Source of the DNA: Nageia nagi
Lineage: Eukaryota; Plantae; Pinophyta
Reading direction: 5' to 3'
Assembly: GCA_050084985.1 (NCBI GenBank)
Contig: JBITNC010000001.1
Span: 165,478,001 to 165,542,000, forward strand
Length of the DNA: 64,000 nt
The translations under genes were made by a program, and so were the position numbers. The notes under the pieces were generated by a model, which saw only the letters and a list, made by a program, of their open reading frames with translations, ran no database searches and was not told the origin of the DNA. This document shows positions 36,867 to 63,182 of this stretch, piece by piece (position 1 is the stretch's first letter; the number at the start of each line of letters is the position of its first letter).

Positions 36867-37985
36867 TGTTGGGAAGTGTTGAGGGGTTTTACTTTCCTAT
36901 CCTTGAGGATCGGCAAATGGTGTCACAAATCTCATGGAAAGAATCCAACACCTGACTGGTAGGGCATAACCCCTACCCCCTATGAGGACTTTTACCTCAA
37001 AGGTTTGAAAATGGAGGGTGTATGGGTTCACTCAGGTGAAACGGTGGAGATGTTTAAAGTTGTTGCCAACTCAAAATATAATCTTGTTAATCAAGGACTC
37101 AAAGGGTCCCTAATCCAGGTATAATTGTTTCTCAAAAAGGGGAAAATAAAAATGGTTTGTTGCGAAAGTCGTGCAAAGAAAATAAAAAAAAAAGGTTGTG
37201 AAAAGACGGTGATATATGAGTGGGGCTCTAGGGCTATGTTTTCACTGATTCATATGACCTTCTGAGACCGAACTTGTGTGAGTTTGGTATAGGTCCCACG
37301 CACCCCAATTCCAGCTCGAAAGGCGACAACATGATTGTCCTGACGAGAGGAGCTTGGCGCTAAGGCAATGAAAAGAAGAGGTAAGGTATGGGTATGACTC
37401 AATCGTGGTGTGAAGTTCCTATGTTAAAGGGCATACACAATTCATCATCAGAACATATTATTCCTAAGTGCAAACTATGAAACATCACACTAAAACACTT
37501 CTCGAAATATTTCTAAAGATATGCAAGCACTCTTTTATCCACCTGTTAGGTTTATAAAATGACTCAAATACTCAAGATAGCATTAAAATGTAACAGTCAT
37601 TCACATTCATAGTCTCAAATGAAACAAGCTCACTTCAATTCCTTGAAATTATATCACAATTGCAAAAAGGGAAAACTTGTAAGTTTTTAGAATATTATCT
37701 TAAGCAATCCCAATTGCAAAAAATCTTTGATGCCTTTACAAATGAGCCCAAATAGGCTACTTATAGTCTTTAGAGCAACCCAAAGTGTTGCCCTAACCCT
37801 AATTACGATTTCTAAGAAATGAAATATGGTCCAACATAAATATGCCACATGGCATTACAAGATGTCCTCCAAATTTTTGGGAGCAAATCCTCATCCATCA
37901 CAAATTTGGGAATTTATTAACAAATAAATAAAGCCTCCAAAAGTAATTATGAAATATAATAAATGCAAGATAACAAATATTGTGA

Positions 37986-40717
37986 CTAGGCAGTTGGTGG
38001 GCCCAACACCTCTACAAGCCCTTCAAAGTCATCATCCAAGAATTTGGCCGTGAGCTCCAATCCATGTAGCATCTCTGATAGCTTCGGCCTATTCTTCACC
38101 ACACTGTGCTCTACGTTATCGATGATCCTCATCATGTCCTTCTCCCACGCATGAGCTTTGAGCAAATGCTCCAAGTGACTACCTGTTTGGAAAGTATTAA
38201 TGTCTGTAGTCATGATCAAACTATGAAGGAAGTGTCTCACTTCTGCCACTACAAAGTCTTTGTCATAGATGGCTGCATCATCATTAAGAAACTTCACTTG
38301 GAACTCCTTTTGCTCAAGACAAGTATTTGCTTTGTCGTTGAGCTTTTGAACATCCTTTTGGAACTCCTGGAATTGGGTGGTTATTTGGTTAACTACACCC
38401 AAATAGAATCAATATTCTTCGCAAAACTTTATATCTTCTGGGTCCCGATTCCGTGACATTTCAAACTTCATGATCATGGGCCATCTAGAATCCAAGATCT
38501 TGAGAAGACTGGTTCTCTCCATAATGATATCCTTGAGCTTTTGCTCCTCGAATGCTATCCTCTCTAGTGCTTCAATGAACTGCTATATTGCTACCAAGAC
38601 CTCCTCTATATGCTTCTGTTTTATTGCAATCATACCCTCCTTAAGCGGCTTGATTTTTCGGAGCTCTCCAATGGGTACTTTAGCCGATTCTAATTCCTTG
38701 GTCAACTTCCTTTGTGCAACTAACTCCTTCTTGAGGCCTTTGATCTCCTTATCTTTCATCATACCATCTTTGGTAATGGCCTCAGCGTTGGAGATAATTG
38801 CATGTTTCCAACCAGCTAGACCAATCGGACCTATGTTGATAATCTGGTTAATATGTCTGAGGTCTTCAAGGCATTGCGGATTTTCCTTATCAGCTATAAT
38901 GGTTTTAATATGTATGGCGTTATCAGCTGTGTATATATGTCTAGGTCTTCCCTGGGCGAGTGGAGCTTTCTCCTATCTGGTCATTCTTTTCTTTCGTCCC
39001 AAATTCTTCCCCGACATCCATATTAAACACATCTAGACACTCCTCCATGTTGACACCCCACTCATTCATGAGTGATGGCTGATAAGTCTCCACAACTGCT
39101 TCTAGAATAGTAACAACATTCTTCTTCATTCTCTTCGAGGGTCTCTCTTCTCTTTGCTCAACATGTTCACTTGAAGTTCCTGTAGCTTGTTACTGTGGGG
39201 TTCTCTTTAATCGAGCCCTCTTCTGTACTATCTTGGATATTGGCTCCTTGTCCTTTTCTATAGGTAGCTCTATCACAGTTGTCTTATGGATTTCTGCCAA
39301 TATCTCTACGGATTCATCTTGTTGCTGTGCATCTAGGATCTCCTCATCCTATACTGCATTCTCCTCCTGTTCATCTTCTAATGCTTCAATCTCCCTTCCT
39401 CTTGATTCTCATCAGGCTTATATGATGGGCTAGAAGCAGACGATCCGGATGGTGGAACAACTGGTGACTTCACGACCGTCATGGTCCTAGGTGGTCTTGG
39501 AGATGGAGAGGGATCTTTGTGTCTATTTCTCATGCATCTCACCACTTTGTTTGTAGCTACTCACTCTAGCTCGCTTGCGTCATTTTCATCCATGGTGACC
39601 TGCACTTGTTGCACAACTTGTTCGATTGGCCTTTTGCCATGCATGGACACATAATGTCCAATTGGTGTTTCAACGATTGGAGGGAACTATGTAATCTTGG
39701 AAGTAGACTCTTGAGATTTTATGCCCTTATGTTGCGAGTCTTTTACTTCAACACGGTGCTGCTGATCATTTGCATCCTTGTCTACCCTTCCTCTTACCTT
39801 CCTTATTTCTATCTCATTGCTAATATTCCAGAAAGGCTCCTCGTCTACTAGTGACTTATGCTCATAAGGTTTCTTCCTTTCCTTCATGAAGAACGAGTGC
39901 ATTCTGTGATTCGAATCATAATGGTCGGCAATAGACATTTTCTTGAAATTGAATTTTGCCAACTCTTCCTTCATGGTGTCTACATCCGTCCAAAACTTAC
40001 ATTGGTACTCTCCTACAGCAATCGGAAAATTAGAAGTGGTCGATTTCTTCTGCCATACCTGGTCATGTAGAAAGGCCAATTGCCTCATCATCTTCATTAA
40101 CAGCATCATCCTGTTACTCACAAACCTAGGCAACTGATAGGGTTGAATGGCTGATCCATGTATACAAATATAAGAGAAGTGTTGATGATGGAGGAAGAAA
40201 TCTCCATGTTTCTTCAAAGTATCTTGGGCTGCATTTGAAATTCGGGAAACCGTGATCTCTCCCTTGAGCTCTTTATATATCTCATACTCCCATCCATCGT
40301 TCTTCATCATGAAATGGTCCCATGTTCTCTCTAATTTCCATTTGGGGTAGCATTTCCAAATGGAGTAAGTTCCTCTTTCTATCCAAACCGTCTCTCCCTG
40401 CGCTGTAGCTCTATACTTGCGATGAAGTAACATGTATACCAGGTATGAATTGAGATAGAATTTGCGAGTGGTACCTATGGATGACAATTGGTCTGCTATG
40501 GTATCACTCACCACCTTGCTCCACCTAATCCTTCTACCCCTAGCAATTCCATAATGAACCCAAAGAACTCCTTCTTGAACTTTGAAGCATCTTCATTCTC
40601 GAGAACTCTAGACAACAAGAGTATCATCAGCTCAACTGCAGGATAGATATTGGAACGAGGAGCATTGATGAGTGCATTTCCCTTCAATCCGTGATGCTCC
40701 TCCAACATCCAACTCTT
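37986..40717 (-). pseudogene. Element A uncharacterised ORF, C-terminal part (conserved domain, acidic linker, coiled-coil)
   Basis: ORFs 40508-40708, 39687-40514 (RKFYLNSYLVY...LPRFVSNR), 38941-39129 and 37986-38402 are collinear and homologous to 58211-61740. Confidence 0.8.
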
Positions 40718-41217
40718 TGTTAGAATTTGTAATGAAATATTGTGAATATCTAAACTCCTTGTAAATTCAATTAATCACTTAAAGGATATGTAGATACCTT
40801 AAGGGATTAATTGAATTCTTTATTATGTGTGGACTTTGACCTAACCATGGGGTTAGTTGGTAGGTTAAAGTTAGGTCACGCATTTATTGTAACCCTAACC
40901 TTACCCTTGGGTTAAAGGGAGGTTAGGGAGGTGCTCTCAAGCTATAAATAGAGGGTCTCTCCTCTTGTAACATATCTAAGTTTTGGAGTAAGATTACTCT
41001 ACTAGGTTGTGTAAGAGAGGAAGAGAATTGTAGTAAGAGGTGCATAGATTGAGAATAGAGAACTAGTTGTGGATGTACTCCCAAGGAGGGAGGAACCACA
41101 TTATATTGGTGTCATATTATGTGAATGTGTTAGTAGCTTGTAGATGTTGCATGTTGAATGTGATTGAGCTTTCTATAGTCTTGGACCTTGGGAATTAGAG
41201 TAGTGCTAATTCTCTCA
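40718..41217 (+). repeat. 5' LTR of Copia element 2
   Basis: TG..CA termini, TATAAATA at ~40943, 98.6% identical to the 3' LTR. Confidence 0.97.
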
Positions 41218-41231
41218 ATTGGTATCAGAGC

Positions 41232-41399
41232 TTGGTGTGGAAGCTCTTCTTCTACATCTTGGAGGTTCTTCATCCTTCTTCATTCCTTTGGTGTGGAAGC
41301 TCTTCTTCTACATTTTGGAGGTTCTTCATCCTTCTTCATTCCTTTGGTGTGGAAGCTCTTCTTCTACATTTTGGAGGTTCTTCATCCTTCTTCATTCCT
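41232..41399 (+). repeat. 3 x 56-bp tandem repeat directly after the PBS
   Basis: TTGGTGTGGAAGCTCTTCTTCTACAT(C/T)TTGGAGGTTCTTCATCCTTCTTCATTCCT starts at 41232, 41288 and 41344. Confidence 0.95.
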
Positions 41400-42026
41400 C
41401 ATCTTACACCCCATTGGTGAGGTAAAACTAAGAGAAGGTATAAATTTCCTTCTCATTTGATTATCTTAATGGATTATTACATTAGATACTAACATATTTT
41501 GTGAGATATTGGAGCTTATTTTTTGCAAAATATGATCAAAATTGGCAATGCAAGCAATTTTTTTTGCTAACCTCTTATGTTAGTAGCATTTTTTTTACAA
41601 AATGCTTAATACATGATATACCTTTTTAAGAGGATACTATGCAATGTAAGTATTTTTACTAACATTTTGTTTGTTAGTAGTATTGATCAATAACTCTATT
41701 ACAAGCATTGCCAAGGTGTAATAGTTACATAATACTTTATTTCTTCTCTAAATTGTCTTATTTTTTGCAAAAATTTTAATGCAAATAGAAGGAAATAATT
41801 TCTAGAGGCAATTGTTTAAAATTTAAAGCAAATATGGGGCTCATTTTTTTATTGTTGAAATAAAAAGTGGAAGACTTTACAAGTTTTTTTTGAAATATTT
41901 ACAATATTTTTTATATATAATATTTTTTTCAAAAATTATAAAATTTTGGGGGGGGGACAAAATAAACGGTAGGGTCTGCCCAGTAGCTCGCGGTCCACCC
42001 TCCGCGTCTCCCTCCTTCCTCTGCAG

Positions 42027-42562
42027 GTCTGTAAAATGTTTGACAAAATGCCTCGACAAGGTGAGTCTCGCAGAAACGTGAACGAGTCCACGCGGTGCAG
42101 ACCTTTCCTCACAGCCTCCTCCCTCGCCAGCTCTGCGTTTCGTGGGCTGCCATGATCGTCGGATATGCACAAAACGAAGCGTTGACAGGATCTGCGAAGC
42201 TGTTTAACAAGCTGCACAATACCGATAGCGTTCCATGGACTCCAGTGATTGCAGGATGCAGACCGTTTCATGGACTCCAATGCACGCAAGATCTGCCCAA
42301 AACGGATACACGGATACGTTGAAAAGCTTCACGTCTCCTGGACTGCAGTGATCACAAGCTGCAGATGCCGCTTCATGAACTTCAACGATCGCAGGATATT
42401 CCCCAAAACGGATACATTGAACAACCCCGCGAATCTTATTGACTATAAATTTAAGATACGTAAACATGTATGCAAAATGTGGAAATGCAGGAAGTCGCTG
42501 GAATGTTTGCCAAATATACCCAAAACAGATGCATTAAAAGACTCCCGCGAATTGGTTGCTAA
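42027..42562 (+). other. Mosaic of PLS-class PPR motif fragments in the Copia 5' leader
   Basis: KMFDKMPR, VSWAAMIVGYAQN, VPWTPVIAG, VSWTPMHARSAQNGY, VSWTAVITS, TIAGYS.QNGY and NMYAKCG occur in shifting frames. Confidence 0.85.
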
Positions 42563-44747
42563 GTGAGTCCTCACGCGAGCGGCAGGCGTTGCAAGCCACG
42601 CCCCCGTGTTGCTCAGACTCTGCACCATAAGCATGCAGGTCAACTCCTAGGCGCTGCCACTCTGCACCACGAGCAAAACGCTCCTGCACTCTCCTTCCTC
42701 TCCTCTTGCGCTCCTCCTCTCAGTCGCCAGCCTCCTGCGCAAGCCTCCTCTTCCTCCTTCACCATTTACTCTTCTAAGCATGGCCACCATCACCTCCATA
42801 GGCTGTCCTATAGTGCCTCCATGAAGGTCCTCCTCCTTCCCACGGTCAAGGTTGATGGCTGCCAACTCTTTGCAAGTCTTTTTTGTCACTTAAATGCACT
42901 TAGAAGCATTAAGTTCTTGTTGACCACTTGCAAAAATGATGCACTTCCAAAAGCAAACGTATACTCCTTAGGCACTTAATATTTTACAAGTCAATTGCTC
43001 CCATTTAATGCACTTAAGAGTACTTCTAATATTCACCACTTTTTACCTTCTATGCTCCTCCACAAAACAATGTATGCTCTTCTTGGTAGAAGAAAAAGAG
43101 GGGGGGTCATTTCTTAAGAAAAAACATGCATTTAATTTTGTTTTTACCAACAAGAAAGGGGATTTGATTTTTTACCACCTAAGTCTTAAGGACCCAACCA
43201 AACCCCTTGAGTATTAATTTTTTGTTGACTGCTTATCACCTTCTTTACATGCACATGAAATTCCAACGTATTCTCCTTCTTGGTAAGGGAAGGGAGCCAT
43301 CACTTTTTTTACCAAAAGCATTTATTTGTTTTTGACTTAAGAGTATTTTTTGTTTGGAAAAGCTTTGGTAGAAGAAGCATTAAATATGCATGAAGTAGGG
43401 GTATGGGTCTCCTTTTTCCATTTAATTCTTGGAGACTTGGTAAGTGGTGAATATTTTTAACTTATTTTAAGTTAAACTTAGCTTATTTTTTTAAAAAATG
43501 CTTAGAATATTTTTAATATTGCATGTTTAATTTACTAAGGTGCACATGCAATTTCTAGAATGCTAACCTCTTAGCATTTTTTTCTCTATAAGCATAGTAA
43601 TTTAGTCTAAGTATGCTATTTTTTTAAGTAAATAAGGGAATTTTTTTTACTTAAAATGCATACTTATAAGACAAGACTTAGCATACAAGTTTTTTTTTAG
43701 GGATAAAACTTTAAGTGAAAAGGGGGGAATAGGTATAATTTTTACTTAAACTTTATCTAGATCTTTGCATGCTAGACTTGTGATGCATGTCTCTTTATCT
43801 TGTAAACTTTATCTAGATATTACATGCTAGACTTATGATGCATGTATCTTTATCTTGTTTGAGGAATAAAGCATGCTTAGGACTTAAAATTTTAAGTTAA
43901 ATAATGCATGATTATTACTTAAATTTTTTTAAGTCATGGAACAATGCATGTTTTTTAAGTTATGGATTAATGCTAAGTAGGACTTAGTTCTTTTTTAATT
44001 CATTAAGTGCTTGAATAAATTGAGCAAAATATACAAAATGTAAAAAGTCCTTTAGGGGTTAGTACAAAACCCATTGGACTTTTTAAGGTTTTTCAAGCTC
44101 GTGTGGATGATGCAATTTTACTTTACTTTATATTTTTGCACAATTTGCTTTATACTTGCAAAACGCAAATATTGAAAGTATCCCCTAAAATGAACACATC
44201 CGCACGTATTCTTCCACAACATGACTTGTTTGGGGAGCCACAAGGTGAGGACAGGGCAGACTGGAGCCCTTTTAGTCCGAAGACCCAAGTGGTGGTAAGT
44301 CCGTCTTAATTGCCCCTAAGACCTCTGTTGGATTGGACATAACTCTATTAGGTGGACAGGCATGTGTGTAGTGATACCACATGTCCGCACGCCCATTCAG
44401 GGATTATCCTAATAACCTAGGAGGAAAACTGAAAACCTTAATCAAGATAATTAAAATGGCCGGTCCAAGATATGTCGGATCCTTGGAAAATAGTTGGTAC
44501 TTCTCCTTGTGAGAGTATATTACTGACCAAGGTGAACTGGTTGAGGACTGGTAGTACCTGAGCTCCACCTTGCGGGCATCCAGGTGAAGGCCTAATTCTA
44601 TACAAGAAAACAACCCCAACTTTATTCCTCTACGGATCGTAGTTTATAAGTTTGCACATGTGGGACATGTTTACTTATGTTTGATTTGTATAGATGGAAA
44701 CTTGTAAAAATTTGCATTCTTATTGCATATGTACTTTTGTACAGACA

Positions 44748-47700
44748 ATGGTTGAAACCTTCATACCCAAGCATATACTCGACGGTTCCAACTTCGGCAT
44801 ATGGGAACCTCGTATGAGAGCTGAGTTACAAGCAAGGAAGCTATGGCAGACAGTAAATGAAGATCTGGTCGCTCCTACAGATGAGAAGGCCCTTGAAATC
44901 TACAACTCAAAGAATGAGTTAGCAACTTCAATGATCTATCGTGCAGTTTCAGATGACATCCTTCTCATGATCTCTTCCTCGACATCAGCAAAAGAAGCTT
45001 GGGATAGACTAAAGAAAATTTACCTTGGGTCCAAATTTTCAAGAAGGTTCACCATTCTACAAAAGTTGTTGCAATATCGTCAAGGTGAAGATGAAAGTGT
45101 CTCTTATCTACTTGAACAAAATCATTGACCTCAGGACACAACTGGTTGGCTGTGGGTGCAATTGGATCAATGATGAGTTCATGGTCTTCATCATTCTTCA
45201 AAGCCTCTCTACAAATTTCAGTAACTTTGTCACAGTTATGGAGACTAGGCTCGATGATGAAGAAGATGTCATCTCTCTTGACAACCTTTCTAGACTCCTT
45301 CTGAAGCATGAGGAAACTTTGAACAAGAAAATATTGAACATCTCTCCAAAGGATAATAGCATTGCTCTAAGAGCAACCAAAACTCCTTTCAAGAAGACGT
45401 TCAAACATTATAAATTCAAAGATAACAAATCCTCATCTACCATCAGGAAGCACGACAACTTCAAGCAAAGGAATGACAAAGCTGGATCAAGCAAACCAAC
45501 ACCGCAGGAAAAATTTGATGGAAATTGTAACTTTTGTGGTATCTTTGGGCACAAAGAGTATGATTGTCGCAAAAAGAAATTTGCTCAAAAAGGCAAGGGA
45601 AATGCAAATGTGAGAAATTTCAATAATAAAAAGAAGAACAAGCATGCTGCTACTGTTGCCTACTACTCAATGACTCAAACTATTTCAAATGATTGGATTG
45701 TTGATTCAGGATGCACTAATCACATGTGTTATGAAAATGATAAGTTTGAAAATTTTCATAAGTACAACAAGGATACAGTTGTGATAGGTGATAATACAGT
45801 CCTTGATGTTCAAGGAATAGGGAGTGTGAAGATTCATGGAAAGGCTCTTGATAATGTCTTTTATGTACCTAAACTAAGGATGAATCTTATCTCCGTAATT
45901 CAGATTACAAGGAAAGGATGCTCATTTGAGTTTACCTCACACTCCTGGTGTGTCAAGAAAGGACTTGCCACCTTGATAAAAGGATCAGTAAAGGATGACC
46001 TTTATATTGTGGATCAAGTACCTTCAAAGATTTGTCTTGCTGCAAATGTTTGTTCAAAGGGTAATCTTTGGCATCAACGATTAGGGCATCTTAACCACAA
46101 GAGTATTCAAGATATGAAAAATCAAGAACTTGTGGAAGGTTTACCTAATATTTCACCCACAATTGGTCTTTGTGAAAGGTGCATTCTAGGAAAGATGAAT
46201 AGGCAAAAGTTTGAAAAAGATAAGGCAACTCGGGTTACTCGTCTTCTTCAGCTTATGCATTCAGATTTGATGGGTCCATTTCAGACTAAGTCTCTAGGGG
46301 GAGCTTCTTATGTTCTAACCTTCATTGATGACTACAGTAGGATGACATTTGGTTATCTACTTGAGCACAAGGATCAAACTTTTGACAGGTTTAAAGACTT
46401 CAAGGCTCTTGTTGAAAATCAAACTGATTTTAAAATTAAGATGCTGAGATCTGATAATGGGGGTGAGTATAATAGCAATGAGTTTAACGACTATTGTGCT
46501 AAACATGGGATCAAGCAACAATTCACAATCCCTTACACCCCTCAGCAAAATGGAGTTGCTGAAAGGAAGAATCGCACCATTATGGAAATGGCAAGATGCA
46601 TGTTGGGTAACCTTCCTAGTTTCCTATGGGGAGAAGCTGTTCACACTGCTATTCACACCCTAAATAGGTATCCTACTAAAGCAGTTGAAGGAAAAACTCT
46701 GTATGAAGCATGGACAGGAAAGAAACCTAACATCTCACACTTAAGGGTCTTTGGTTGTGATGCATTTGCCTTCATTAACTCAGAGAAAAGAAAGAAGCTA
46801 GACAAAAGATCAAAAAAATGCATCTTTGTGGGGTATGATAATCAGCATAGAGGTTACAGGCTCTACTCCTCATCCCATAAAACAGTCTTTGTTTCTAGGG
46901 ATGTCAAGTTCAATGAACTTCCTGAGGATACGACTTCTCATGCTGAGGTGTCTGATTCAGATGATTCTACGCCTGCACCTAACTGGTTAGATGATCATGT
47001 AGGGAAGTCACCACAAGAGCAAAATTCTCCAGCTCAGAGAATTACAAGGAGTATGACCTTGAATAAATCCTTATTTGCCAAAATTGATAATATGAATGAG
47101 CCATCAACATTCAAAGAAGCTTCCAAGCAAGAGTGTTGGATGGAAGCTATGAAAGTTGAGTATGAGGCACTCATGAAAAATGAAACTTGGGATTTGGTTC
47201 CTTATCCCAATGAGAAAAATGTGATTGGAAATAAATGGATATACAAGGTCAAGTACAATTCTGATGGAAAAGTTGAAAAATACAAAGCAAGGTTAGTGGC
47301 CAAAGGATTCGCTCAGAAATATGGTATTGATTATGAGGAAACCTTTGCTCCTGTGGCCAAGATGCCTACTGTCATGATAATCCTTGCTCTTTCTGCAGCT
47401 CAAGGATGGAAAGTTTTCCAACTTGATGTCAAGAGTGCATTTCTCAATGGTGACTTGGATGTAGAAATCTATATGAATCAACCAGAAGGATTTATTCCAG
47501 AAGGAAAAGAGTCTCTTGTGTGCAAGCTAAAGAAGTCTTTGTATGGACTTAAACAAGCACCTAGAGCATGGTACAAGAAAATTTCAGGATTCTTTGCAGA
47601 TATTGGTTTTTCCAAGTGCTTCTCTGACTCAGATCTCTATGTACTCAATCAAAGAAAAGACGTGGTCTTAATTCTCCTTTATGTGGATGATCTTCTCATA

Positions 47701-48645
47701 ACAGGCAACAATATTGAAATCATCCAAGAGTGCATATCCAAACTGAAGGCAACATTTGAAATGACTGATCTAGGTCTATTGCATTACTATCTTGGAATGC
47801 AAGTATACCAACACAAAGATTGTACTTATCTTAGTCAATCTAAGTATATATCAGACATCTTGCAAAAGTTTGGAATGGAGGAGTGTAGATATGCTGCAAT
47901 ACCTGTTTCTCCTAGAATTGTTGTATCACTGAGCTCAGATTCTCAGTTGGCCGACGCTACAGCTTATAGGCAATTGATCGGTAATCTTCTGTATTTGACT
48001 ATCTCTCAACCTGATATTGCCTTTGCAATGAATCTGATGGCATGATTCATGCAAAAACCATATGTTGAACACCTCAATGCTGTGAAGCAAATCTTGAGGT
48101 ATGTGGCAAGGACAAAGGATCTTGCTCTTAAGTATTCCAAAGTGCCCTCAATTGTTCTCTCCGGGTTCTCAGATTCTGATTATGGGGGAGATAGAGATGA
48201 CAGAAAATCAACCTCTGCATATGTGTTCAGCATTGGTTCAGGTGCTATCTCTTGGGCTTCCAAGAAGCAACCTACTGTGACTCTTTCTACCACCGAAGCC
48301 GAATATCGAGCCATGTCTGTTGCCGCCCAAGAGGCTATTTGGCTGAGACATCTTCTGAACGAAATTGGGTATAAGCAAAATGGCCCATCTCTTATTTCTT
48401 CAGACAATCAATCGGCTATCTCTTTGGCTAAGAATCCTGTGTTCCATCAGAGAACTAAACATGTGGAAATCCAAGCCCATTTTATCAGGGAGAAGGTTCT
48501 AGATGACATCATACACTTGGAGTATTGTCCATCTATTGAAAACTCCGCTGATTTATTCACCAAGCCCCTTCTTAAAGTTCAGTTCAGCAAGCTTAGGGAT
48601 TCTCTCGGGTTGGTGAAGTTGCCCTCAAGGGGGAGTGAAGTTTGA
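44748..48645 (+). pseudogene. Copia gag-pol polyprotein, near intact (one +1 frameshift at ~45105, one premature TGA at 48043-48045)
   Basis: LDGSNFGIW (gag), CNFCGIFGHKEYDC, WIVDSGCTNHM (protease), LWHQRLGH, PQQNGVAERKNRT (INT), LLYVDDLL (RT), FSDSDYGG...RTKHVE (RNase H). The TGA is consistent with CGA>TGA deamination. Confidence 0.95.
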
Positions 48646-48705
48646 ACTTTTGTTAGTGATGACAACTTCACCTCTAAGAGGTCTTTTTTGATTGTACATT
48701 CTAGA

Positions 48706-50532: not shown

Positions 50533-50914
50533 GGTGTTCTCACTTGCAACGTGGTCCCTCAAGAATGTTGTGTGGGTTTCCAGGTGAAGATGACACCCAC
50601 GTTGGAGGGTCTTGCCTCCCAAATGCTTGCGCAAGCCCTAGTATGGATGAATGATAATGTTTGAGCATAAAAATATGCAATTTGCTGTTATCTTGGTGCA
50701 AGAGTAGAAGAGGAGCAAGTTTTGAGTTTGAAAAAATGAGGTCCCTAAGCTTGTATTTATAGCCCACTTGGCTTCTAGCTTGCCCTAGTTGGCTAGGGTT
50801 ACTAATAGAACTCATCATAGCCTTCCACCTGACTGACCTCGAGATGTGTGCCAACCCATAAACTCATGCAAAGCCTCCTATGCCCTAACATTTGGGTTTT
50901 AATACTCAAACTGA

Positions 50915-52015
50915 CTTGGCACATGGAAAAAAAAGACAAAATGATTTTTTGAACCATGTGCCAGCCCTGGGAGCTTGTATGCTTACAATGTTGGGTCTCT
51001 TGTCTTCATGTTTGCTTGACTTGATCACCTAACTCACTCAATAACCTGATTTTTTTTAATTTCTAGTCTTCCAGTCGACTAGACTTGTCGATTTTGATGT
51101 TTCATTTCGACCTGGGCAACCTATGGACTTGGCGCATGCTTTCAAAAGTCAAGTTTGTGACTTTTTGAGGCATGTGTCAGCCTTGCTTGTCCATCTAGCT
51201 TGATCACATGGTTCAATAAGACAAGATTTTGTCTTTTTGAAGCATGTGCCAACCTCCAGTTGGCCTACTTTTCGGAATTTGATCTTCAAGTGCTCATGCC
51301 TTAACCAAATTTTGTGTTTCTCGAATCCTGGAGGCTTCCTAGGCTTGGCGCATGTCTCAAAAAGTCAAGATTTTGTCTTTTGAGACCATGTGCTAGCCCC
51401 TTTGGGTATGCTCGAGTTGGTCATGAGTTTCCCGGACTTGTCAAATTTTCCACTTTGCTTGGATTGGCAGCCTTTCTAGGCTTGGCGAATGGTTCAAAAA
51501 GACAAGATTTTGTCTTTTTGAAGCATGCGCCAGCCTCCTGGGTGACTCATGTTCATTTTTTGACCTTCGAACTTGCTCAACTTGCCCTCTTGGCAAAGTC
51601 GTATGGTTCAAAAAGACAAGAATTTTTCTTTTCAAACCATGCGCCAGCCTCCTGTCTTTTGAAGCATGCGCAAGCCTCTTGGGTGATTCATGTTCATTTT
51701 CTGACCTCCAAACTTGCTCAACTTGCCCTCTTGGCAAAGTCACATGGTTCAAAAAGACAAGAATTTGTCTTTTGAAACCATGCGCCAGCCTTGTAATGCC
51801 TCTGCCTTGGGTTTTTCGTGCTTACTTTTGTTCCATTTCCTCCCTTATGTTTGGTGCATGCCCAGGAAAGACAAGGTTGCCTTTTGGAGGCATGCGTTGG
51901 GCTTCCAAGTGCCTAGATTTCATTCTTGAGCCTTCCCTCTTGTCTGGATGACACCCAAGCCCAATCGCATGGTTCAAAAAGACAAGATTTTGTCTTTTTG
52001 AAGCATGCACTAGCC
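50915..52015. repeat. About eight dispersed ~50-bp palindromic units in element A
   Basis: Variants of TGGCGCATGGTTCAAAAAGACAAGATTTTGTCTTTTTGAAGCATGCGCCA near 50917, 51130, 51207, 51345, 51482, 51603, 51743 and 51967. Confidence 0.85.
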
Positions 52016-55000
52016 CTTGGAGATGCCTAGTTTGTTGATTGGGCTTCAACTCTTCCTAGACTTCCTAGTTCACCTAAGATCAACTTTTACACTTCCCAAA
52101 CTTAAGCCATTTTTAGAAATTTTGAAATTCTTATCATGACATGACTAACCCTAGGCGAAGGAAGAGGCTTGAACTATAAGGAGTTGATCGTGAATCTGGG
52201 TCTTTGAGATGCAACTTGGCTAGGACTGACGACGACAAAACGAAGTATATACATGTGTTTCAATCACAACAAAAAGGAAATCTTTCCTCTTACTCAGCGA
52301 TTGCCTGAACGATCAAGATGGGAAAGCAACCCAACATTTAGGTGAGAACGAGTTACTGAACTCCTCTTGTAAGGATTAATATCCCAAGTTTTCTATTGAA
52401 AAGCTCGTGTCGTTAATACAAGTTTTAAATTATGTAGGTCTTGTTTGGAAATCAACTGATTGGTGTAGTAGAGGTAGTAACTGTTAGCAAACTTTTTTTG
52501 TGGGGACTGAGGTGTATTATCTTGCAATAGGTCGAAAGTTGCTATAAGTTTAAAGAAAGTGTAAAATAAAGAAAGAAAAGTGAGAATGAGGCCAAATACT
52601 GGCAAGACTTCAAAGAGGTAGTCACAATGTAGCTTTGCCTAAACTTCTTTCTTTCGAATCAATTTAGAAATCTTGTTCAATTCAATCAAGTCTTCGAAAT
52701 GAATAACTATTGTCCAATCATTCCAAAGATGAGCGAAAAGCGGAATTGATTGTCACTACTTTGCGAATAGGACCGATGCAATCAAATGGATTAAGCGTGA
52801 GGGAAGGTGAATAGTTTTGAACAAGAAGCCTAGGAAGATGTCTTAAGAGAAATTCGGTTCAAAATACTAAGTATTTAACAAACGCGTAGTGGATTAGCAA
52901 CAATTCAAGACAATTCAAACATTTTAGAAAAGTTTGCAACAAACTCTCCTAAAACTCGAAAGTTTTCAAAGAGAAGGTACAAAAATATTTGAATTACAAA
53001 AAATGCTTTCAAACGATCAATCCACCACTCCCATAGATGAAAACACACCTTGAATCAACATGTAGCCCCTTGTATTATGATTGCAAAAGAGTTTTGCATT
53101 ACTACATCAATTTGCTCCTTAGTTACAAAAAATTTCAATTTTCATGAAAATTGGCCTTTTTTGAGGACTTGAATTTGAGGGTGTTGCCCTAATACTTAAA
53201 AAAACTTTAAAATGCTAATTTGAAATTACAATATCATTTTAGTGGGAGAACAATACTCATCCCACTAAAATATGCTAGAAATAAAATATTTATAAAAATT
53301 GATGCCCTCTAGCATGGATTTTGAGGCATTTTGCATCAATTTGGCAAAATTTGGACCTTCAAATCATCATTTTGGATCCTTCTATTAGTCTTTTGAGCTC
53401 CTTCTTTCTTTGCATATGGATTTTCCCATGATGTGATCATTTTGGCAAATTTTCAAGGAATTCTGAAAGGATTTTTCGAAAAAGTGGATTTTTTTGTCTA
53501 TTTTTCAAAAAGATGGGGGGATCTGAAATTTGGAAAAATTTTAAAAAGTGGATTTGAGCTCATGGATGGATGGAGGATAGGATTATAAGGTACTTGGCAA
53601 GTTTTGAGAGGATTTGGAGCTTTTTAGGAGATTTTGTGAAGGATTTGGAATTTTTGGCAAAGATTTCGTTTTTCATATCTGGAATTTTTTGGTAGAAAAA
53701 AGTGAAAATTTCCATATGAATGAAAAATGCCTCCTATATTTTTGAGCACTTAAAATTGGTCAAATTTGAAAATTTCAAAGTTTAAATGTGCTCAAAATGT
53801 GCCCTTTCATGCAATGAAACCATAAAATTCGATTTTTGAGCAAAATTTGACATTCCTTCTCAAGTTAGGCACTAATTTTCACTTGTATGGATTTCCAATG
53901 ACATGAAAACCTGCAACAAGCTTTTAGAGGGGCTTGCCTTGCTCAAAATCGAAAAAGTGAAGGTTTAAATGTTCACAAAATCACTTTTTCAGTCCCTTGG
54001 ATTTCCAATGACATGAAAACCTGCGCCTGCCTTTTGGGTGCCTTTTCATTGCTCAAAATTGAAATTTTGCAAGTCTAAATGTGCTAGAAATCATCATTTT
54101 CACCTAATGGACACCCAAAACTTGATTTTTGATGAATTTTGCTCTTTTGCCTCCAATTTAGGTGCCATTTTTCACTCCTATGAATTTAGAAAAATTAGGA
54201 AAACTGCGCCTAGCTTTTAGATGCTCAAAAAAAGCTCAAATTTGAATTTTCAAATACCTAAATGTGCTCAAAATCACCTTTTTGACCCAATGAACCCCTC
54301 AAACTTGTGTTTTGATCAAAATTTGTTAAATGTTTTCATTCAAGGCACCATTTTTCACTCATTGGAATTCCATAGCCTTGAAAACTTGTGCCTAGCCTTT
54401 AGGGTGCTCAAAAATGCTCAAAATCAAAACTTTTGAGACCTAAATGTCTTTAGAATAATGTCTTAAAAAAAACACTTAAGCTTATCAACCTAGGTGCCAT
54501 TTTTCATGCCAATGGATTTGGAAAAATTTAGAAACTTGCGCCTAGGAATTTGAGGGTTTAAACTTGCTCAAAACCAAAAAAATTGAGACCTAAAATGCCT
54601 TAAAACCATCCTTTCCATCCATCTATGCATTTACATTTGACTTTCGATGCATTTCTACCTTTTCCTCACAATCTAGGCGCCAAAAATCATCTCTATGGAT
54701 TTCCCATAGGCTTGAAAAACTAGGCCTAGGATTTGAGTGCCTTATAATTGGTCAAAATCGAAAAATTTCAAGTCTTAATTGTGATAGAATTCACATTATC
54801 TCTCCAATAACACTTTTAGACTTGATTTTTAACACCATTTGTATTTATCATTGAAAAAAGTGCACCATTTTCCCCTCATTTGGGTCTTCAATACCTTGGG
54901 AAAAAGTGCCTGGGGCCAGTGGTACTCAAACTTGCATTTCCGATCCATTCCAGACTCAATGTACATTTCTGACCATTCTTGGCATTTCCGAGCTCAAACT

Positions 55001-55777
55001 CGACCAAAACACCCTTTCCGGCACCTTTGAGCTCAAACTCTGCATTTTCGATGATTCTTGAGCTCAAATGGGGCAAAAACGACCATTTCCACCTTTCGAG
55101 CTCAAACTTGTCATTTTCAGTGATTTCTAGACTCAAAGTATTCACTTCTACCCATTTCCGGCATTTTTGGGCCCAAAGTGTGAAAAACCAAACACTTCCT
55201 GAATTTTGGCCATTTTGATCTCAAATTTGCATTTTTGACCATTTTTTAGCTTTTTGGGCTCAAATGGTGCAAAACCGCACTTTTCACTATACTAACCACT
55301 TTCGGGCTCAAAATTGACCAAAATGCTATTTTTCATGATACTAACCATTTTTGAGCTTTTCGGGCTCATACTTGACAAAAAGGCTTATTTTTGTCACCTT
55401 AGCTACATCCACTACTTCCGGACTCAAACTTGACAAAAACGCTCATTTTCATGACAATAGCCATACTTGTGAGCTCAAACTCTGCAAAAACGACCCCATC
55501 TCCACTGACCTCACTCTAGACCCAAAAATTCGTGCTCTGATACTCTCTCAAATCCTGGCTCCTTTGCTCCAAAAATGACGACTGTATACCCTAGTACTCT
55601 TCAGGGTCTTTGTCGTATGATCTGCTTGAATCACTCCCTGATATCATGTTTGCAGTCTTCAAAATGAACTGTCTGTCGCCAAAAGCCAATCTCAAGGCAA
55701 TACACCTCATTGCCTTTCGAAAATAGGGTCCCCAAAATCTTGTATTTTGAGATGTGTTGTGCAGACACAACACACTT

Positions 55778-56503
55778 CCCTCAATCTTATTATAGAAAAG
55801 GACTGCTCATAAAACAAATATGAAGAAGACATTTGATAGGGAAAACCGGTCTTTCCTTCTTGGCATCATGAGGAAGTTTGGCTTTGGAAATCAATGGCTC
55901 AGCCAGGTCTCTGCTTTAATCAGCAATCCCTCCTTTTTTGTTCTGATAAATGGAAGTGCACAGGGGTATTTCAGGAACACTCGTGGTCTTCACCAAGGAG
56001 ACCCACTTTTGCACTATTTGTTCATTATAGTGGCAAAAGCTCTAGGAAGAGGCCTGAAACATATTCAGTCCACTAGACATATCAAAGGGCTGCATCTTAA
56101 TCTTCTTTTCCCCTGATCAATCACTCTCAGTTTGCAAACGAGACTCTCCTTGTTGTCTATCCTCCCATTCAGGAAATCCACATGATCAAGAATTTGCTCA
56201 ACTCCTATGAACGGGCATCAAGACAAGTAATGAACTATGAAAAGTCAAAATTTTATGGAATCAACTTGAAACCATCCTTTCATAAATACCTGGCAAGGCA
56301 AACTGGTATGTGCATTGACTCCTTCCCAAGAACATACATGGGTTTTCCTCTATTTTTGGGGGGCAACACTGAGGTCTTTTGGGATTCGCTCATTACTAAG
56401 CTCAAAACTGAATTGGTTAGCTAGAAAAGAAAATGGCTTTATGCTGTAGGTAGACTATTCAAGATCAAATCAGTCCTCTCCTCTTTCCTAGTCTTCTAGA
56501 TGG
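55778..56503 (+). mobile_element. LINE piece 3: RT core, degenerate
   Basis: MKKTFDR, VLINGSAQGYFRNTRGLHQGDPL, QFANETL (QFADD equivalent), YMGFPLF, IKSVLSS. Confidence 0.92.
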
Positions 56504-56689
56504 TGCTGTGCCCCAAAATTTTGCATTTTGAGGACCCTCGAAAACAAAGTTTAAATGCATGGAAGTTAATAATGTCTAAGGGAACGTATGCATCTTAGTT
56601 TAAGTTTTGGGAAATATGCTAAACTTGCACATTCATGATCAATTCAAGTCATTAACCTGCATTTTTCCTCAATCGCATGTTTTAAGGGA

Positions 56690-57945
56690 CATGCTTTTGC
56701 ACGTCCCCTAAACGGTGTGACCACCCTCATGCTGCATTTTCATAGTCGTTACTTGCATTTTTCAGTCTTAAAATTGCACTGTCAAGGTCCTTCATGATGC
56801 AGAAGTTCATCTCTCCCTCATTGCATTTCATGTTTGAAGTCATTCTGGTCGGAATTCAAGACAAAAAACTTGTTTTCAGCTTGTCACATGTTTTCAAGTG
56901 AGTGCTTTTGCACCCACCCAAAATGGTGTAACCAAAACTAGAGATTCTCATTCTTAGCAGTTTTTTGGAAAAGCATGTCGCATGTTTTCAAGTGAGTGCT
57001 TTTGCACCCAACCAAATCCATGTGACCAAGGAGGAAGAAATCTTTACTTAGCCATTTTTGGACCTGCAAGACTAGTCACATGTTTTCAAGTAAGTGCTTT
57101 TGCACCCCACGAAATCCATGCAACCAGGAAAAAGGGGACTTAGCCATTTTTGAGACAATCAAGGCTAGTCGCATGCTTTCGAGTGAGTGCTTTTGCACCC
57201 AACTCAAACCATGCAACCAGATTCATAAGGTGGAAGTTGGCTAAGTGTTGGGTCCAGATTGTTGCCAAGTGGAAACACATGCATTCGACCCCCTTTTGCA
57301 CCAATCATGTGATAACACCTGTCCTATCCGGAAGGCTATAAAAGGAAAGTCAGCCTCAGTCATTCTATTTGCAAAACTATCTAGAGCATTGCGTGGAGCC
57401 AAGGGAGAAAAAGCACATCCTCCAAAACGTGCAACCTATGTCAAATTTGCATTTTTTTAGTCATTTTTTGGAATTTCTGGTCTCGGGGGGTGCACCAAAC
57501 CCCAATCACATCATTTTATGTGCATGAAAAAACACTCCTCCCAAGTCATGTGCCCAGTCCTAGACATTTTGCCCCGAGGTTGAAATTGGCTAAGTGTTTG
57601 GAATTTGGAGGTAAGGCCCAAGCGCAAGGATTAAGGTGCATGCTTTTGCACCCCTTCTAAATAGTGCGACCAAGAATCGAGCCTCATTATTGACCTGAAA
57701 TTTGACCAAGTCCCAAGTACCTAGTTGCATGCTTTTTGACCTATGCTTTTGCACCCCTTCTAAACGATGTGCCCTTGTTTTGGCTCCACCATTCAACCCC
57801 TAGCTTGACCAACCCAGTGGTGACATGTGGCAGCATAGAAGGTTATAAATAGCATGCCAACCCTAAGTCATTTTCACCACTTCATCTCAAATATTTTTTT
57901 ACCTTACTCCCAGTCGCACCATTTCTAGCGCATTCTTTTGCACTC
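56690..57945 (+). repeat. Array of CTTTTGCAC(C) motifs, partly as ~92-98 bp tandem units
   Basis: About nine copies. Four have the longer context CATGTTTTCAAGTGAGTGCTTTTGCACCC (56885-57200). Confidence 0.8.
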
Positions 57946-58210
57946 ATCCAAAACTGTGTGCCCAGAATTGCAAGGTGAAATTGGTCAAGTGTGAGATGCC
58001 AGGAGTCAGGAAGAGAGGAAGACAAGTGGCAGGCATGCACTCTGCCATGCATTCACACTCCATGCATCTCATTTAAAAGGAGGCAACTTTCATTCAATGT
58101 CCTGGACGTCCTGTAGCCCAGACTTGCACGTTTGGTTCTTCCTTGCTGCTTTCTTCACAACATCCAGATTTTGTCCCTAGGTCCTCTTGGGGCATTCCAT
58201 ACATTTTTGC

Positions 58211-61200
58211 ATGGCTTCCAGTATCAGACCACCTCCATCCAGAGCCAGGAAAATTCAAGGGCAACTATTTGAGAGACATGTGACCAAGAACTAGATGGCT
58301 TGGCTTTCGAAAGAAAGTCTTATTGAATTTCAAGAAAGAGAGAGACTAGAACTCCCTGAGGCCAAATTCAAGGGGAGGTACATCTTTGTTGGTGATACAG
58401 CCTAGGGAAACTTGGACCCCGTCCAAACTTTAGCCTCCACAGCCTCTATCAGTAAGGAGGATTTATCAAAAGAGCTCATCCACACATGTGCCTTGTTCAA
58501 CGCCACTATGATGCCTTTTGCAATACCCTTTCCTGACTTATGCTACAAGGTAACCAGGAAATATGAATATGACAAGAAAGTCCTATGGGACATAGAAGGA
58601 AATGTAATCATGGACTTCTCCCTCATTGGGATTGAAGCAGCCTTTGGCTGAAGAAGGTATGCGGACGATTACACAGTGGCACACTGAAGAATTCCATGAT
58701 TCCACAACCCGGCCTGGGGACTACATTCAGCCCTAGTTACTGGAAGATTACCAAAATCTTCAAGGTCTGAGGTTGATCAGCACTCGTAGAGAGGAGTTTG
58801 CCTGTTGTGGCCAAGATGATCACTCTTTTGTCTAGGGTCACTGGTCAGGAGAACGATGTGAAGTACAAGAAGGAGTTAATAGGCTTCATTGCAATTATCA
58901 ACTCGAGGAGAGCTATTCGATGGGCTAGGGTAATCAATGATGCACTATGCCACTAGTTAGCCTATTTTGGCTCGTTGAAGAGATTTTACATGAATTCCTA
59001 TCTTGTGTACTTATTATTGCATGGCAAGGTCAGATCCAGGGAACTAGCTGATGAAATATATTTAGGACAAAAGAACACCCTTGTGTGGCAAGCTTATCCA
59101 AAGTGGTGGTACCAGAACAAGTTCCAACATTTTTGTGAGAGACAGACCGTTGGGAGTATGATATCTACAAAGATATCAAAGGGAAGTCCGTAGTAAAGAA
59201 GATTTTTGATGCAACCATTCAAGCTATTAGTGTACATATAGATTTCTTCTTGTAGAACGTTGACCATACATTCATCAGAGTCTATGGCTCAAAGGAGCCC
59301 CTACTCTTGCCAAGATACGTCGATGATATGCTTATCCTCATGGAATTTGCCAGGCAACTTTTATTTTTGAAAGAAAAAGTCTGGAAGAAGAAGAACAGGG
59401 CCATTAACTTGCCAATCTCAATTGTAAGGTATGTGTGTCAGATGTGGGTCAAGGCAGCCAATATGAAGAAGGAACTGCAGCAATATGTCTTTTCCAAGGA
59501 GGCAACTACAAGAAACTATGATCATAGGGGCATAATTGCACATTTCTATAGCATTGCATTCCACAAACCTATTGTGTTTCCGCATGTCTTTGGGGAGTGT
59601 GGAGAAGTACCGAAACGTGTAGGATGAGGAGGAGATTGCAAAGGTAGATGCTCTTTTGAACATGAAAAAGGCTCTCCTCCAAGCAGCAAAACTACCTCAG
59701 AGACCCCATACCATTAAATCTAGATCACAAGAGGTCCCTCTCAGGATCAGGTCATCCCCTCCTCTAGTTCGTGTTGCACTCCCGCCAGCTAAGGTACCCT
59801 TGCTTCCCATTGGCAAGAGGCAAGAAACTCCAAGGGAACACATTCCAGGCCCTAGCAAGCATAATGGTGATGACTGATCTCAAGGATGCTAGCTATCGTG
59901 CTATTCCCTTGGATGTGCTGGATGATGTAGTGGATGAGGCTTGTGCCAGTGATTCACCCAAGAAAGCGATCCCTTCCAGGCTCACTCATTCTCCTGGATG
60001 CAGAGAGAAAATCCCCCCCTTGCAACCAAGTTCTAGTTCCAGTTCTGAACGCTCCACTTCCTCTTTCGACGAAGAGACTGATGAAGAGCCCGACCATACA
60101 ATAGAAGACTCCAAAGAAGAGTCAGAAAGTCATGGTGGAAGAGAAGAAGAGGAAGAAGATGATGATGATGATGATGCTACTGTTGTCCCTGAGCAAGAAG
60201 ATGAAGCTATAGGTGCATCTGCACCTGACGAGACAAAGATTGAAACTCTCCCAGATGACAATAAGATAGTGGACATTGGGACCTATGATGATGATGAGGT
60301 CCTGATCGTTGGAGATAGGTGTGCTAGAGAGGTGGGTGCCTCCAAACCCTCCCTGCCAAGCATAGGAAGAAGTCCCCTTCCTCTTCGCATAAATCCTCTA
60401 CAAAGAGAACGAGCCATGAGACATCTCCTCAGCCACGCAAAGGCATATCTATATGTGGTGATGGAGGAGATAAAGAGAACGAAGGAGAGACTGAGGAATA
60501 GAAGAAGAAAAGAAGGCAGGAAGAGCACCAAGGTAAGGAGATTACCTTAATTCCAACTACTCCAGCGAAAGAGGTCAAGAAGATCAACAAAGGATAATTG
60601 TTGGTACAAAGGTTTCCTCCCCAGCCAGCAACCAAGCATCCAGATCTTGACCTAGATGTCTACCAGCCCTCAGCATGAGTATGGCTCATGATGAAGATAT
60701 AGACCAGGATCTATGCTCTAAAGATGAGGAAGAGGAGCTTTTAGATGATGAAAAGATTTGAAGGGTTGACACATTTGTTTCCACCTACCGAAAGGAAATC
60801 TCCAACAGCCATTGCTATTCAAAGGAAAAACATCCTTAGAAAGCAGAAGACTGTGTCATCAAGACATTCAAGATGCCTATGAAGCTAGGATTGACAGCTC
60901 GTAAACATATAGTTACTCATAATGTTGCAATCATGAAGTAAGAGGGGTATGAAGCCAAGAAGTGAAGAGGTTGAAAAAGAAACTCACGACTAGCAGGAAG
61001 ATCATCGAGTCCTAGAAGATCAGTATCACCCCCTTAGATCTGTAGAAGCATACCTCATTCCATGAGGGATGGGAGTTGATGAAGGTGCAATTAAAAAGCG
61101 AAATGATAAAGGCTATTGAGAGGTTGTCTTCTTGAATCTACAAGCTCCTTGCTAAACATGTAGAAACTAGGGACCTTAAGACACAAATCTCAGCACACCT

Positions 61201-61740
61201 TAGCACATTGAACAGCCATCTTCCCAACGTCTTCCATCTGCAGCATGTTTACGCTAACAATCCTGAAAAGTTAGTCTACTGCCACAAGTTCACATACCAC
61301 CATGTTTGGTTGAATCACGCACTTGAAAAATGCAACGCAGTCCTGAAGATCAGAATCCCCTTGAGAAAGGAGGTCGAGGAACAAATGTGTGACTATGCCT
61401 ATCAGCTCAAGTTCCAAGGGGAGGACAACAATGTGAGAAAGAAGGAGGCGGTATTGGAAGAGGCTCCAAACCTGATACAGGAGCATTTAGATATCAATGA
61501 CCTCAGTTTGATGAAGGCAAGGCATCCTATCGTCCACGAAAGGCAGATGGTCATCTGGAGGCACTAGATGCGGGCTACATTGAAGATAGAGGACTACTTT
61601 CAGCAGAATGGTAGCACCATTGGTATGATTTTCAAGGGCATACGGAAGACTATGGTGTTCTTGGAGGAGACCATTGAGTCATATGGTCTCACCAACGAGG
61701 AGTGGAACTCCGCCAGTATCGGATCAAATCTGGCCTAGGT
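58211..61740 (+). pseudogene. Element B uncharacterised ~1150-codon ORF, disrupted
   Basis: KRFYMNSYLVYLLLH, LPRYVDDMLILMEFARQL, a D/E-rich linker (60040-60300) and a charged C-terminus. Homologous to the element A ORF. The end is approximate. Confidence 0.8.
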
Positions 61741-63182
61741 CTGATCAACCAGCAGATTTTGTTTGCGGTATCTTTTCTTTTGTTTAATGCATATTTGATG
61801 GTTGTTATTTCAGACTCTATTTCACTTGATTTGACTAGTGTAGGGATGAGTTTTTGCTCTCATCAAGTCAAATCTGTTAGACTCATTTATGACTCTGATC
61901 GGTGCAAGGATGAGGTTTTTCTCCCGCCGGTTCAAGTGTCAGACCCCTTATTGCATATTTGATTTGCTTTTGAGTAGATTAAGAAGTAGATTAAATGCAT
62001 TTTGGTAGTGACATTTATATTTGGTCTGACTTTTAAGTGCCACTTGCATCGATTCATGTGAACAATCTGATTTTGTATTGGTTTGTGTGTTTGTGTGTGT
62101 GCACACCATATCAAATTTGATGCCTTTAGGGCTACACTTCTAGTGGCCTAGTTATACCCCATCATGGTCATTTAGAAGAAGATTTTGCATTTGGGATTTT
62201 TGCATGACATTATGCATTTTTGCATATGTGAGACTCTACACTTAATAAAAATATTGCATATTGAGGATCTTGCATTTTGGGATGTTGGCTACAAGCTTTT
62301 GTATGTGTAAGAATTTTTGAGTTGTTGCATCTGTTATAACTGAGGTTTATTGTATTTCATATGAATGCAACGAGGTTTTTCTACATATGTTTGGGTTGTT
62401 GCATCCTTAAGCTTTTACATTTTGTTGCATAGAGGTTCATTGCATAAGGGGTTTCTATGCATGTTCATCATTGAATATCATCATGAATGTATTTCTTTTG
62501 AGGAATGAGATTATAAAGTTAATACTATGAAGGATGTCATTTGTGGGATCATGCATATTTGAATAGCTTTTCTCTTGGAGTTACGTATTGAATATTGATT
62601 GAAGTGGTTTGAGTTGTTCTTTGCATGGTTTGCATGTAAGTGAATGTATTATGAGGCTCATAACTTATCTTTATACCATTCGGTTAGGTTTTTGTGCTCA
62701 CACCCTCACTTCATTTATTTCTCCCCATTGAGTCTTCCACCAAAGACCCCACAACTTCTTGCTCTCGTCTGGTAGTGATTTGAGTATATTTTGCTATTTT
62801 CTTCCTGGCTTGATAGTGAGTACATTGACCTTAATGAATCTGAAGATGACCTGCCGAGACACTGCATCACTGGTGATACCTTCATAAGTTCATTTTTACT
62901 TGTATTCCTTTGCATTTATCCTTGTGTTTTGTCCCTGCATTTGTGATCTTTCTTCTCATTTGTTCACATTTGTAGTCTTTCCTCATTGTGAAGAAGAATT
63001 CTGAAGTTGTATTTCCCTTGTATACGGTTAACAACATGCATCTCTGACTACTATGCCTTCAAGACCATATTCCATGTGAGCGCTTGGGGTAACCAGTCCT
63101 TTCAGGCGGAAACAAGTAACAATGTTTCCTCTAAGTCTTGTGCATGTTTTGGACTAGGAAAGAAAAACATACCAACAAATGG

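What the first reader, a model, noticed from the sequence alone, without database searches (positions are those of the whole stretch)
36867..63177. Two related giant TG..CA units with 5-bp TSDs that encode one unknown protein but have no gag/pol and no LTR pair: ORF-bearing giant solo LTRs or an undescribed element class
Seen: element A (36867-55772, minus strand, 9.57 kb net) and element B (56504-63177, plus strand, 6.67 kb) each interrupt the same LINE cleanly. Both have integrase-type TG(T/C)TG..CAACA ends, 5-bp TSDs and similar 5' termini (TTTTG(A/G)GGACCCT). Their layout is the same: motif arrays, TATA-like signal, one ~1100-codon ORF, then a U5-like end. The proteins are clearly homologous but divergent (GDT..N.DP; FY.NSYLVY.LLH; YPKW; LPR.V...L...RQL). 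I found no internal direct repeat, PBS, PPT, gag or pol. Established: solo LTRs keep TG..CA ends and the TSD, and accessory ORFs of plant LTR elements (Athila/SIRE env-like, Ogre extra ORF) normally lie between the LTRs. Inference: here the whole unit is the LTR and the accessory gene sits in U3, as MMTV sag does. Each solo LTR would then leave behind a self-contained expression cassette.
Basis: partly seen in the sequence, partly recalled or inferred. Interest (0 to 1): 0.85.

Follow-up and report, generated by a model that had tools for sequence, protein, structure and literature searches.

The report
Giant solo LTRs carrying a gene
These are likely leftover 6-7 kb terminal repeats of a plant (probably conifer) retrotransposon that carry a whole conserved gene inside the repeat, and that gene's predicted fold weakly resembles a transposon anti-silencing protein, so each leftover would be a self-contained cassette that may protect its family from silencing.

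The parts
56504..63177 (+). Unit B: ORF-bearing solo-LTR-like element, 6,674 bp, TGCTG..CAACA, TSD GATGG/AATGG
56650..57965 (+). B upstream motif array: 9 copies of a B-specific core; 6 paired CATG half-sites 31-35 nt apart (5 at 34 nt)
57843..57875 (+). TATA + TCATT module upstream of the B ORF (a second similar module near 57336)
58211..61738 (+). B ORF, about 1,176 codons, broken by stops and frameshifts: conserved N-terminal ~450 aa, acidic linker, C-terminal conserved part
62510..62545 (+). TATA + TCATT module downstream of the ORF, 667 nt from the end (inferred U3/R boundary)
62982..63177 (+). U5-like end with a motif shared by all family ends; 21 nt from GGAA to the terminal base
36877..52271 (-). 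Unit A2: ORF-bearing solo-LTR-like element, 6,060 bp net of the nested copia, TGTTG..CAACA, candidate TSD CTTTT/CTTCC (3 of 5)
50920..52022 (-). A2 upstream array of ~48-bp palindromes; 7 units with CATG half-sites 32 nt apart
50730..50762 (-). TATA + TCATT module upstream of the A2 ORF, conserved in L001, L002, L004, L006
37986..50532 (-). A2 ORF, about 1,070 codons net, split by the copia and broken by stops and frameshifts
37730..37766 (-). TATA + TCATT module downstream of the A2 ORF, 890 nt from the end (862 nt in L007)
52272..55772 (-). Unit A1 body: ORF-less related LTR (3,506 bp with its displaced end), own motif arrays, U5-like end at 52399-52272
36867..36876 (-). Second TSD copy of A2 plus the last 5 bases of A1; the exact CACTT TSD lies outside
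40718..50047 (+). Younger Ty1/copia nested in the A2 ORF (500-bp LTRs, TSD CTCTT, pol ORF 45013-48045)
55773..56503 (+). Host LINE RT segment between the insertions (continues left of 36867 and right of 63177)

Best explanation
B and A2 are likely solo LTRs (6.7 and 6.1 kb) of a Tat/OTA-type Ty3 retrotransposon whose U3 region holds a conserved accessory gene, predicted to encode a VANC/PMD-like DNA-binding protein that would bind the family's own upstream motif arrays and counter silencing. Shown: the ends, TSDs, lack of an internal repeat, ORF homology, purifying selection, family-specific arrays, two TATA modules, and one relative with a PBS-like site after the same end. Inferred: the full element is LTR-PBS-gag-pol-PPT-LTR (about 18-25 kb). 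The genomic RNA would start at the TATA after the ORF and carry the gene at its 3' end, so reverse transcription copies it into both LTRs. The gene would be read from the TATA before it. Recombination between the long LTRs then leaves a solo cassette with promoter, arrays and gene. A1 is a related LTR without the gene.
Confidence: 0.62

Rival explanations
1. Same structure (ORF inside a giant LTR), but the protein is not an anti-silencing factor. It acts as a transcriptional activator, or as a particle or integration accessory like the Athila/Ogre extra-ORF products, and the arrays are host-factor enhancers.
For: The fold match is middling and did not repeat with the second model. Arrays of tandem repeats are common in OTA non-coding regions (PMC6317226). 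A1 has arrays without an ORF.
Confidence: 0.2
2. The units are deletion or recombination derivatives of ordinary Tat elements: the ORF is a normal 3' extra ORF, the true LTR is the last ~1 kb, and L007 is a tandem pair sharing one LTR.
For: TatII elements carry sense extra ORFs 5' (23%) or 3' (26%) of pol (PMC6317226 supplement). A promoter module lies 670-890 nt from the 3' end. B's last 300 bp is covered several-fold deeper than its interior.
Against: A ~1-kb LTR would also stand at the 5' end; none does in A1, A2 or B. The same non-U5 5' start leads straight into arrays and ORF in three A-family copies (A2, L001, L002). No pol remnant or second U5 was found upstream in L007.
Confidence: 0.1
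3. The units are a distinct LTR-less class that moves as a single TG..CA cassette, mobilised in trans by a retrotransposon integrase, with no internal domain of its own.
For: 6 of 7 3' ends and 5 of 5 5' ends face unrelated DNA. Read-contig flanks are diverse. Solo LTRs are reported to be scarce in conifers.
Against: L007 shows a PBS-like site after the end. The units have no PBS or PPT of their own, no TIR and no recognisable transposase. Short-read contigs under-represent identical junctions.
Confidence: 0.08

Closest known systems
Ty3/gypsy non-chromovirus OTA clade, TatII (gymnosperm) as defined in REXdb (PMC6317226)
   Same: [quoted passage not shown] That the L007 site is Asn-type is recalled, not tested.
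   Different: The ORF lies inside the LTR rather than between LTR and gag or pol. The LTRs are 6.1-6.7 kb against 'up to about 5 kb' there. No RT, aRH or INT was available to place the family.
VANDAL/VANC anti-silencing system (MuDR-like DNA transposons; VANC21, PDB 9LNK)
   Different: Here it is a retrotransposon LTR with no MuDR transposase. Sequence identity is 5-9% with no Pfam match. The array units are ~50-bp two-half-site repeats rather than 9-bp motifs. Binding and demethylation are untested.
Ogre ORF1 / PMD-A, Retand Transposase_28 ORF, Athila ORF-1, maize Grande gene23
   Same: Conserved accessory ORFs of OTA elements; Grande's has its own promoter (PMC7264820).
   Different: These are described in the internal region and are lost on solo-LTR formation. 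None of these Pfam families was hit by the window's ORF pieces or listed for the homologues.
MMTV sag and HIV nef in U3 (recalled, not from a call)
   Same: An accessory ORF within U3, duplicated into both LTRs.
   Different: Vertebrate retroviruses with LTRs near 1 kb, and unrelated proteins.

Membership tests
Solo LTR of an LTR retrotransposon | TG..CA ends with short inverted termini | tested here: met
   A1 and A2 TGTTG..CAACA, B TGCTG..CAACA
Solo LTR of an LTR retrotransposon | 4-6 bp target-site duplication | tested here: met
   A1 5/5, B 4/5, A2 3/5 (two transitions)
Solo LTR of an LTR retrotransposon | No gag/pol and no internal terminal repeat | tested here: met
Solo LTR of an LTR retrotransposon | The same end is followed by a PBS in a relative | tested here: met
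   1 of 7 ends: L007, 16/18 to a CCA-ended RNA, 5-nt spacer; one degenerate locus only
Solo LTR of an LTR retrotransposon | gag downstream of that PBS | tested here: inconclusive
   Frame looks gag-like by recalled motifs; no hit
Solo LTR of an LTR retrotransposon | The same start is preceded by a PPT in a relative | tested here: inconclusive
   0 of 5 starts; sample small and biased to unique flanks
Solo LTR of an LTR retrotransposon | Intact element with two copies of the unit around gag-pol | not testable with these tools
   No genome held; longest locus 15.6 kb
TatII (OTA clade) | RT/RH/INT phylogeny, and aRH between protease and RT | not testable with these tools
   No pol of this family was recovered
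TatII (OTA clade) | PBS for tRNA-Asp or tRNA-Asn | tested here: inconclusive
   CCA-complementary site shown; tRNA identity recalled; no tRNA gene recovered
TatII (OTA clade) | Gymnosperm host | not tested
   Inferred from recalled protein motifs and the nested repeat landscape; no call names the host
VANC / PMD-like anti-silencing factor | VANC/MAIN fold | tested here: inconclusive
VANC / PMD-like anti-silencing factor | Sequence match to a PMD or VANC Pfam domain | tested here: not met
   PDB profile searches
VANC / PMD-like anti-silencing factor | Family-specific motif arrays in the element's non-coding DNA | tested here: met
VANC / PMD-like anti-silencing factor | Sequence-specific binding and loss of DNA methylation | not testable with these tools
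   Needs EMSA or DAP-seq and methylome data
VANDAL (MuDR) element | MuDR transposase and ~9-bp TSD | tested here: not met
   5-bp TSD; no transposase Pfam hit
LARD/TRIM or internal-deletion derivative | Pair of LTRs at the unit's ends | tested here: not met
Integrase-type DNA transposon (Ginger, Polinton) | Long terminal inverted repeats and an integrase ORF | tested here: not met
   Only 5-bp inverted ends; no integrase hit in the ORF pieces

The most novel reading that the evidence does not exclude
A high-copy gymnosperm retrotransposon lineage has packed a VANC-like sequence-specific anti-silencing system (gene, promoter and co-evolving binding arrays) entirely inside 6-7 kb LTRs. Solo-LTR formation, normally the host's way of disarming an element, leaves working cassettes that can de-silence the family in trans. 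The full elements escape standard LTR finders.
Probability: 0.35. Interest if true: 0.85.

Novelty: new variant of a known kind. Interest (0 to 1): 0.65.

Why it matters
It would be a plant LTR retrotransposon with a protein gene inside the LTR, and with LTRs longer than the ~5 kb upper end given in REXdb. Such elements would exceed common finder limits (one conifer study required the LTR pair within 15 kb), so an abundant family could be missing from conifer annotations and solo-to-intact estimates. The function of OTA extra ORFs is an open question (PMC7264820). Here a weak fold match to VANC21 and family-specific arrays give a direct test: does each family's protein bind its own array? A positive result would extend sequence-specific anti-silencing from eudicot DNA transposons to retrotransposons and bear on the disputed origin of PMD/MAIN/VANC.

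Tried and rejected
No genome is held, so pairs of repeats could not be sought.
ORF relatives: none among longer proteins, in viral contigs or in prokaryote genomes. P0046 among the 108 hits is an fn3-repeat false positive and was left out of the alignments.
No RNA holder listed. Run X5, guessed to be RNA, was laid only on the 3' end and shows nothing on expression.
A PBS-like word in the X1 loose-end consensus was set aside: agreement 0.45 and the wrong spacer.
Pattern scans for the PBS-like motif gave 19, 2, 2 and 1 loci. ARAGORN found no tRNA in 23 of them; the one read was an unrelated chance match. Blastn against phages and plasmids gave only chance hits.
The L007 gag-like frame stays unconfirmed.
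Fold searches: Foldseek on PDB and viral models, VIA second look and PDB sequence profiles gave nothing clear. The Atlas on P0033 gave no usable hit.
dN/dS: 7 of 14 pairs were saturated at silent sites and give no ratio.
Single-unit reading of A rejected. DNA-transposon and LARD/TRIM readings rejected (no TIR, no transposase, no LTR pair).
Earlier findings of this scan: nothing.
The VANC21 structure paper and the 2022 VANC evolution paper were not held.
Full report
Observation. B (56504-63177, +) starts TGCTG, ends CAACA and is flanked by GATGG/AATGG. The outer A interval (55772-36867, -) has TGTTG..CAACA ends and an exact CACTT duplication. The LINE reading resumes across both. Neither blastn nor nhmmer --max finds a terminal direct repeat. 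The two ORFs are homologous (33-57% in tblastx segments) and span about 1,070 and 1,176 codons, broken by stops and frameshifts. Contigs from 4 of 4 laid runs cover B end to end, far deeper than most of the LINE flanks. Contigs leave the window at 63177 (17 in X1, 7 in X3) and at 55772 (13 in X2) with unrelated flanks (agreement 0.43-0.47). These are real, repeated mobile units.

Correction. A is two elements. A profile of five family 3' ends also hits 52399-52281 inside A (E 1.2e-4) and stops at 36877 rather than 36867. An A-family start lies at 52271, collinear with L001. Removing 52271-36877 restores an end with the same 21-nt terminal spacing as A2, B, L003 and L007. So an ORF-bearing unit A2 (6,060 bp net of the copia, candidate TSD CTTTT/CTTCC) sits five bases from the end of an ORF-less 3,506-bp relative A1. 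A family profile finds no ORF remnant in A1.

Relatives. The ORF has 108 hits among 50% representatives and 10 closer ones. None is named and no consistent Pfam family appears. One scan of metagenome contigs gave 7 loci. L001 and L002 show the A-family start running straight into arrays, TATA and ORF. L002, L003 and L004 show family 3' ends on unrelated flanks. L007, an old copy about 35% identical, is the informative one. Its ORF is followed by a TATA + TCATT module, the shared U5-like motif (E 7.5e-5 against a profile built without it; alignment), the end, five bases, then TGGTTCTAGAAGGAGGGC. This matches the complement of a CCA-ended small RNA printed in PMC8747174 at 16 of 18 (rough chance 7.5e-6) and meets the 0-5 nt PBS rule of PMC6317226. 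That it is a tRNA-Asn end is recalled. The frame beyond looks like retrotransposon gag by recalled motifs, but four searches and a local comparison gave no hit. No second U5 copy and no pol remnant were found upstream, which is weak evidence in so decayed a copy. In all, 1 of 7 3' ends faces a PBS-like site and 0 of 5 starts faces a polypurine tract. That is more solo-like than the 1 solo per 4-7.5 complete elements reported for pines and spruces (PMC5751070). Short-read contigs favour unique flanks, and long LTRs may recombine more.

Anatomy. Each ORF unit reads: TG, motif arrays, TATA + TCATT, ORF, a second TATA + TCATT 667-890 nt from the end (A2, B, L002, L007; the pattern missed L003), U5 motif, CA. 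The second module is where an ordinary LTR promoter would be, which puts the ORF in U3 (inference). The ORF was conserved: dN/dS is 0.11-0.31 in the 7 of 14 pairs not saturated at silent sites. The arrays are family-specific. The A motif occurs 12, 12 and 9 times in three A-family upstream regions and never in B. The B motif occurs 9 times in B and never in A. A1 has a third motif 11 times (expected 0.1-0.3). A and B units share a layout of two inverted CATG half-sites, mostly 32 nt (A) or 34 nt (B) apart: 6-7 pairs per region against under 1 expected. The patterns were chosen after looking at the sequence.

Mechanism. Most likely the parent is LTR-PBS-gag-pol-PPT-LTR of Tat/OTA type. Genomic RNA would start at the downstream TATA and carry the accessory gene in its 3' U3, so both LTRs receive it. 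The upstream TATA would drive the gene. The protein, probably as a dimer given the paired half-sites, would bind the family's arrays and keep the LTR unsilenced. Recombination between the long LTRs leaves solo cassettes such as A2 and B, which later decayed. I put the structural reading near 0.8, the anti-silencing function near 0.4, and the statement as hedged at 0.62. Rivals: another accessory function (0.2), a deletion derivative with a ~1-kb LTR (0.1), an LTR-less class (0.08).

Comparison and novelty. It works like a solo LTR and meets the features I could test locally. Membership of TatII is not shown, as no pol was recovered, although gymnosperm TatII has Asp/Asn PBSs and sense extra ORFs (supplement 3 of PMC6317226). 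It is not a VANDAL, LARD/TRIM or Ginger element. REXdb gives LTRs up to about 5 kb, and a 2020 review places extra ORFs in the internal region (PMC7264820). Searches turned up no listing that describes an ORF inside a plant LTR or a VANC-like gene in a retrotransposon. The library lacks most subscription papers, and Repbase was not searchable. MMTV sag and HIV nef as precedents are recalled. Verdict: new variant of a known kind, interest 0.65. The boldest reading, self-contained anti-silencing cassettes left by solo LTRs, has probability 0.35 and interest 0.85.

Papers seen. PMC6317226: passages and supplementary file 3 (its per-element supplements were not among the 5 files held and may list such LTRs). 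PMC7264820: parts 1-2 of 3 (main text). PMC13547354, PMC5735166, PMC5418596, PMC5751070, PMC13477047, PMC8747174: passages only. Others: search listings only. The VANC21 structure paper and the 2022 VANC evolution paper: nothing seen.

Noticed in passing
window 40718-50047: Young copia (LTRs differ at 7 of 500 sites) with a 1,010-codon pol ORF, three 56-bp repeats after the PBS and a 46/67-bp array at 48656-49096.
   Followed up: partly
window 17757-23068: LTR element with ~1.1-kb LTRs and a PBS; only aspartyl-protease-like hits were found in its two long ORFs, so it may be non-autonomous. Its LTR is 73-75% like L001 2119-2582.
   Followed up: no
window 2589-8464: Older copia with ~245-bp LTRs (86% alike) and RVT_2 pieces.
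   Followed up: no
window 14585-14953: ORF with a LOB-domain hit (E 6e-14), possibly a host gene exon or pseudogene.
   Followed up: no
window 12427-13102: AT-rich 82-bp inverted repeat, MITE-like.
   Followed up: no
L002 2817-2850; window 52271 and 55772-56504: Family members land next to or inside each other: a B-family end lies about 30 bp from an A-family start in L002; A2 sits in the end of A1; A1 and B are 731 bp apart. This may reflect targeting or clustering.
   Followed up: no
window 62862-63177: B's last ~300 bp is laid several-fold deeper than its interior in all four runs, perhaps because more subfamilies or ORF-less relatives share this end.
   Followed up: partly
window 52272-55772: ORF-less relative A1 has its own distinct arrays and lacks the paired-CATG layout; it could be a target of another family's protein or a derivative that lost the gene.
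   Followed up: partly
L007 13686-13703: The PBS-like site is complementary to an RNA annotated as miR3711 in PMC8747174; that CCA-ended 'miRNA' may be a tRNA 3' fragment.
   Followed up: no
L004 1-123/900-1022 and 1903-2012/5821-5930: Perfect inverted and direct duplications suggest an assembly chimera; the layout of this locus was not used.
   Followed up: no
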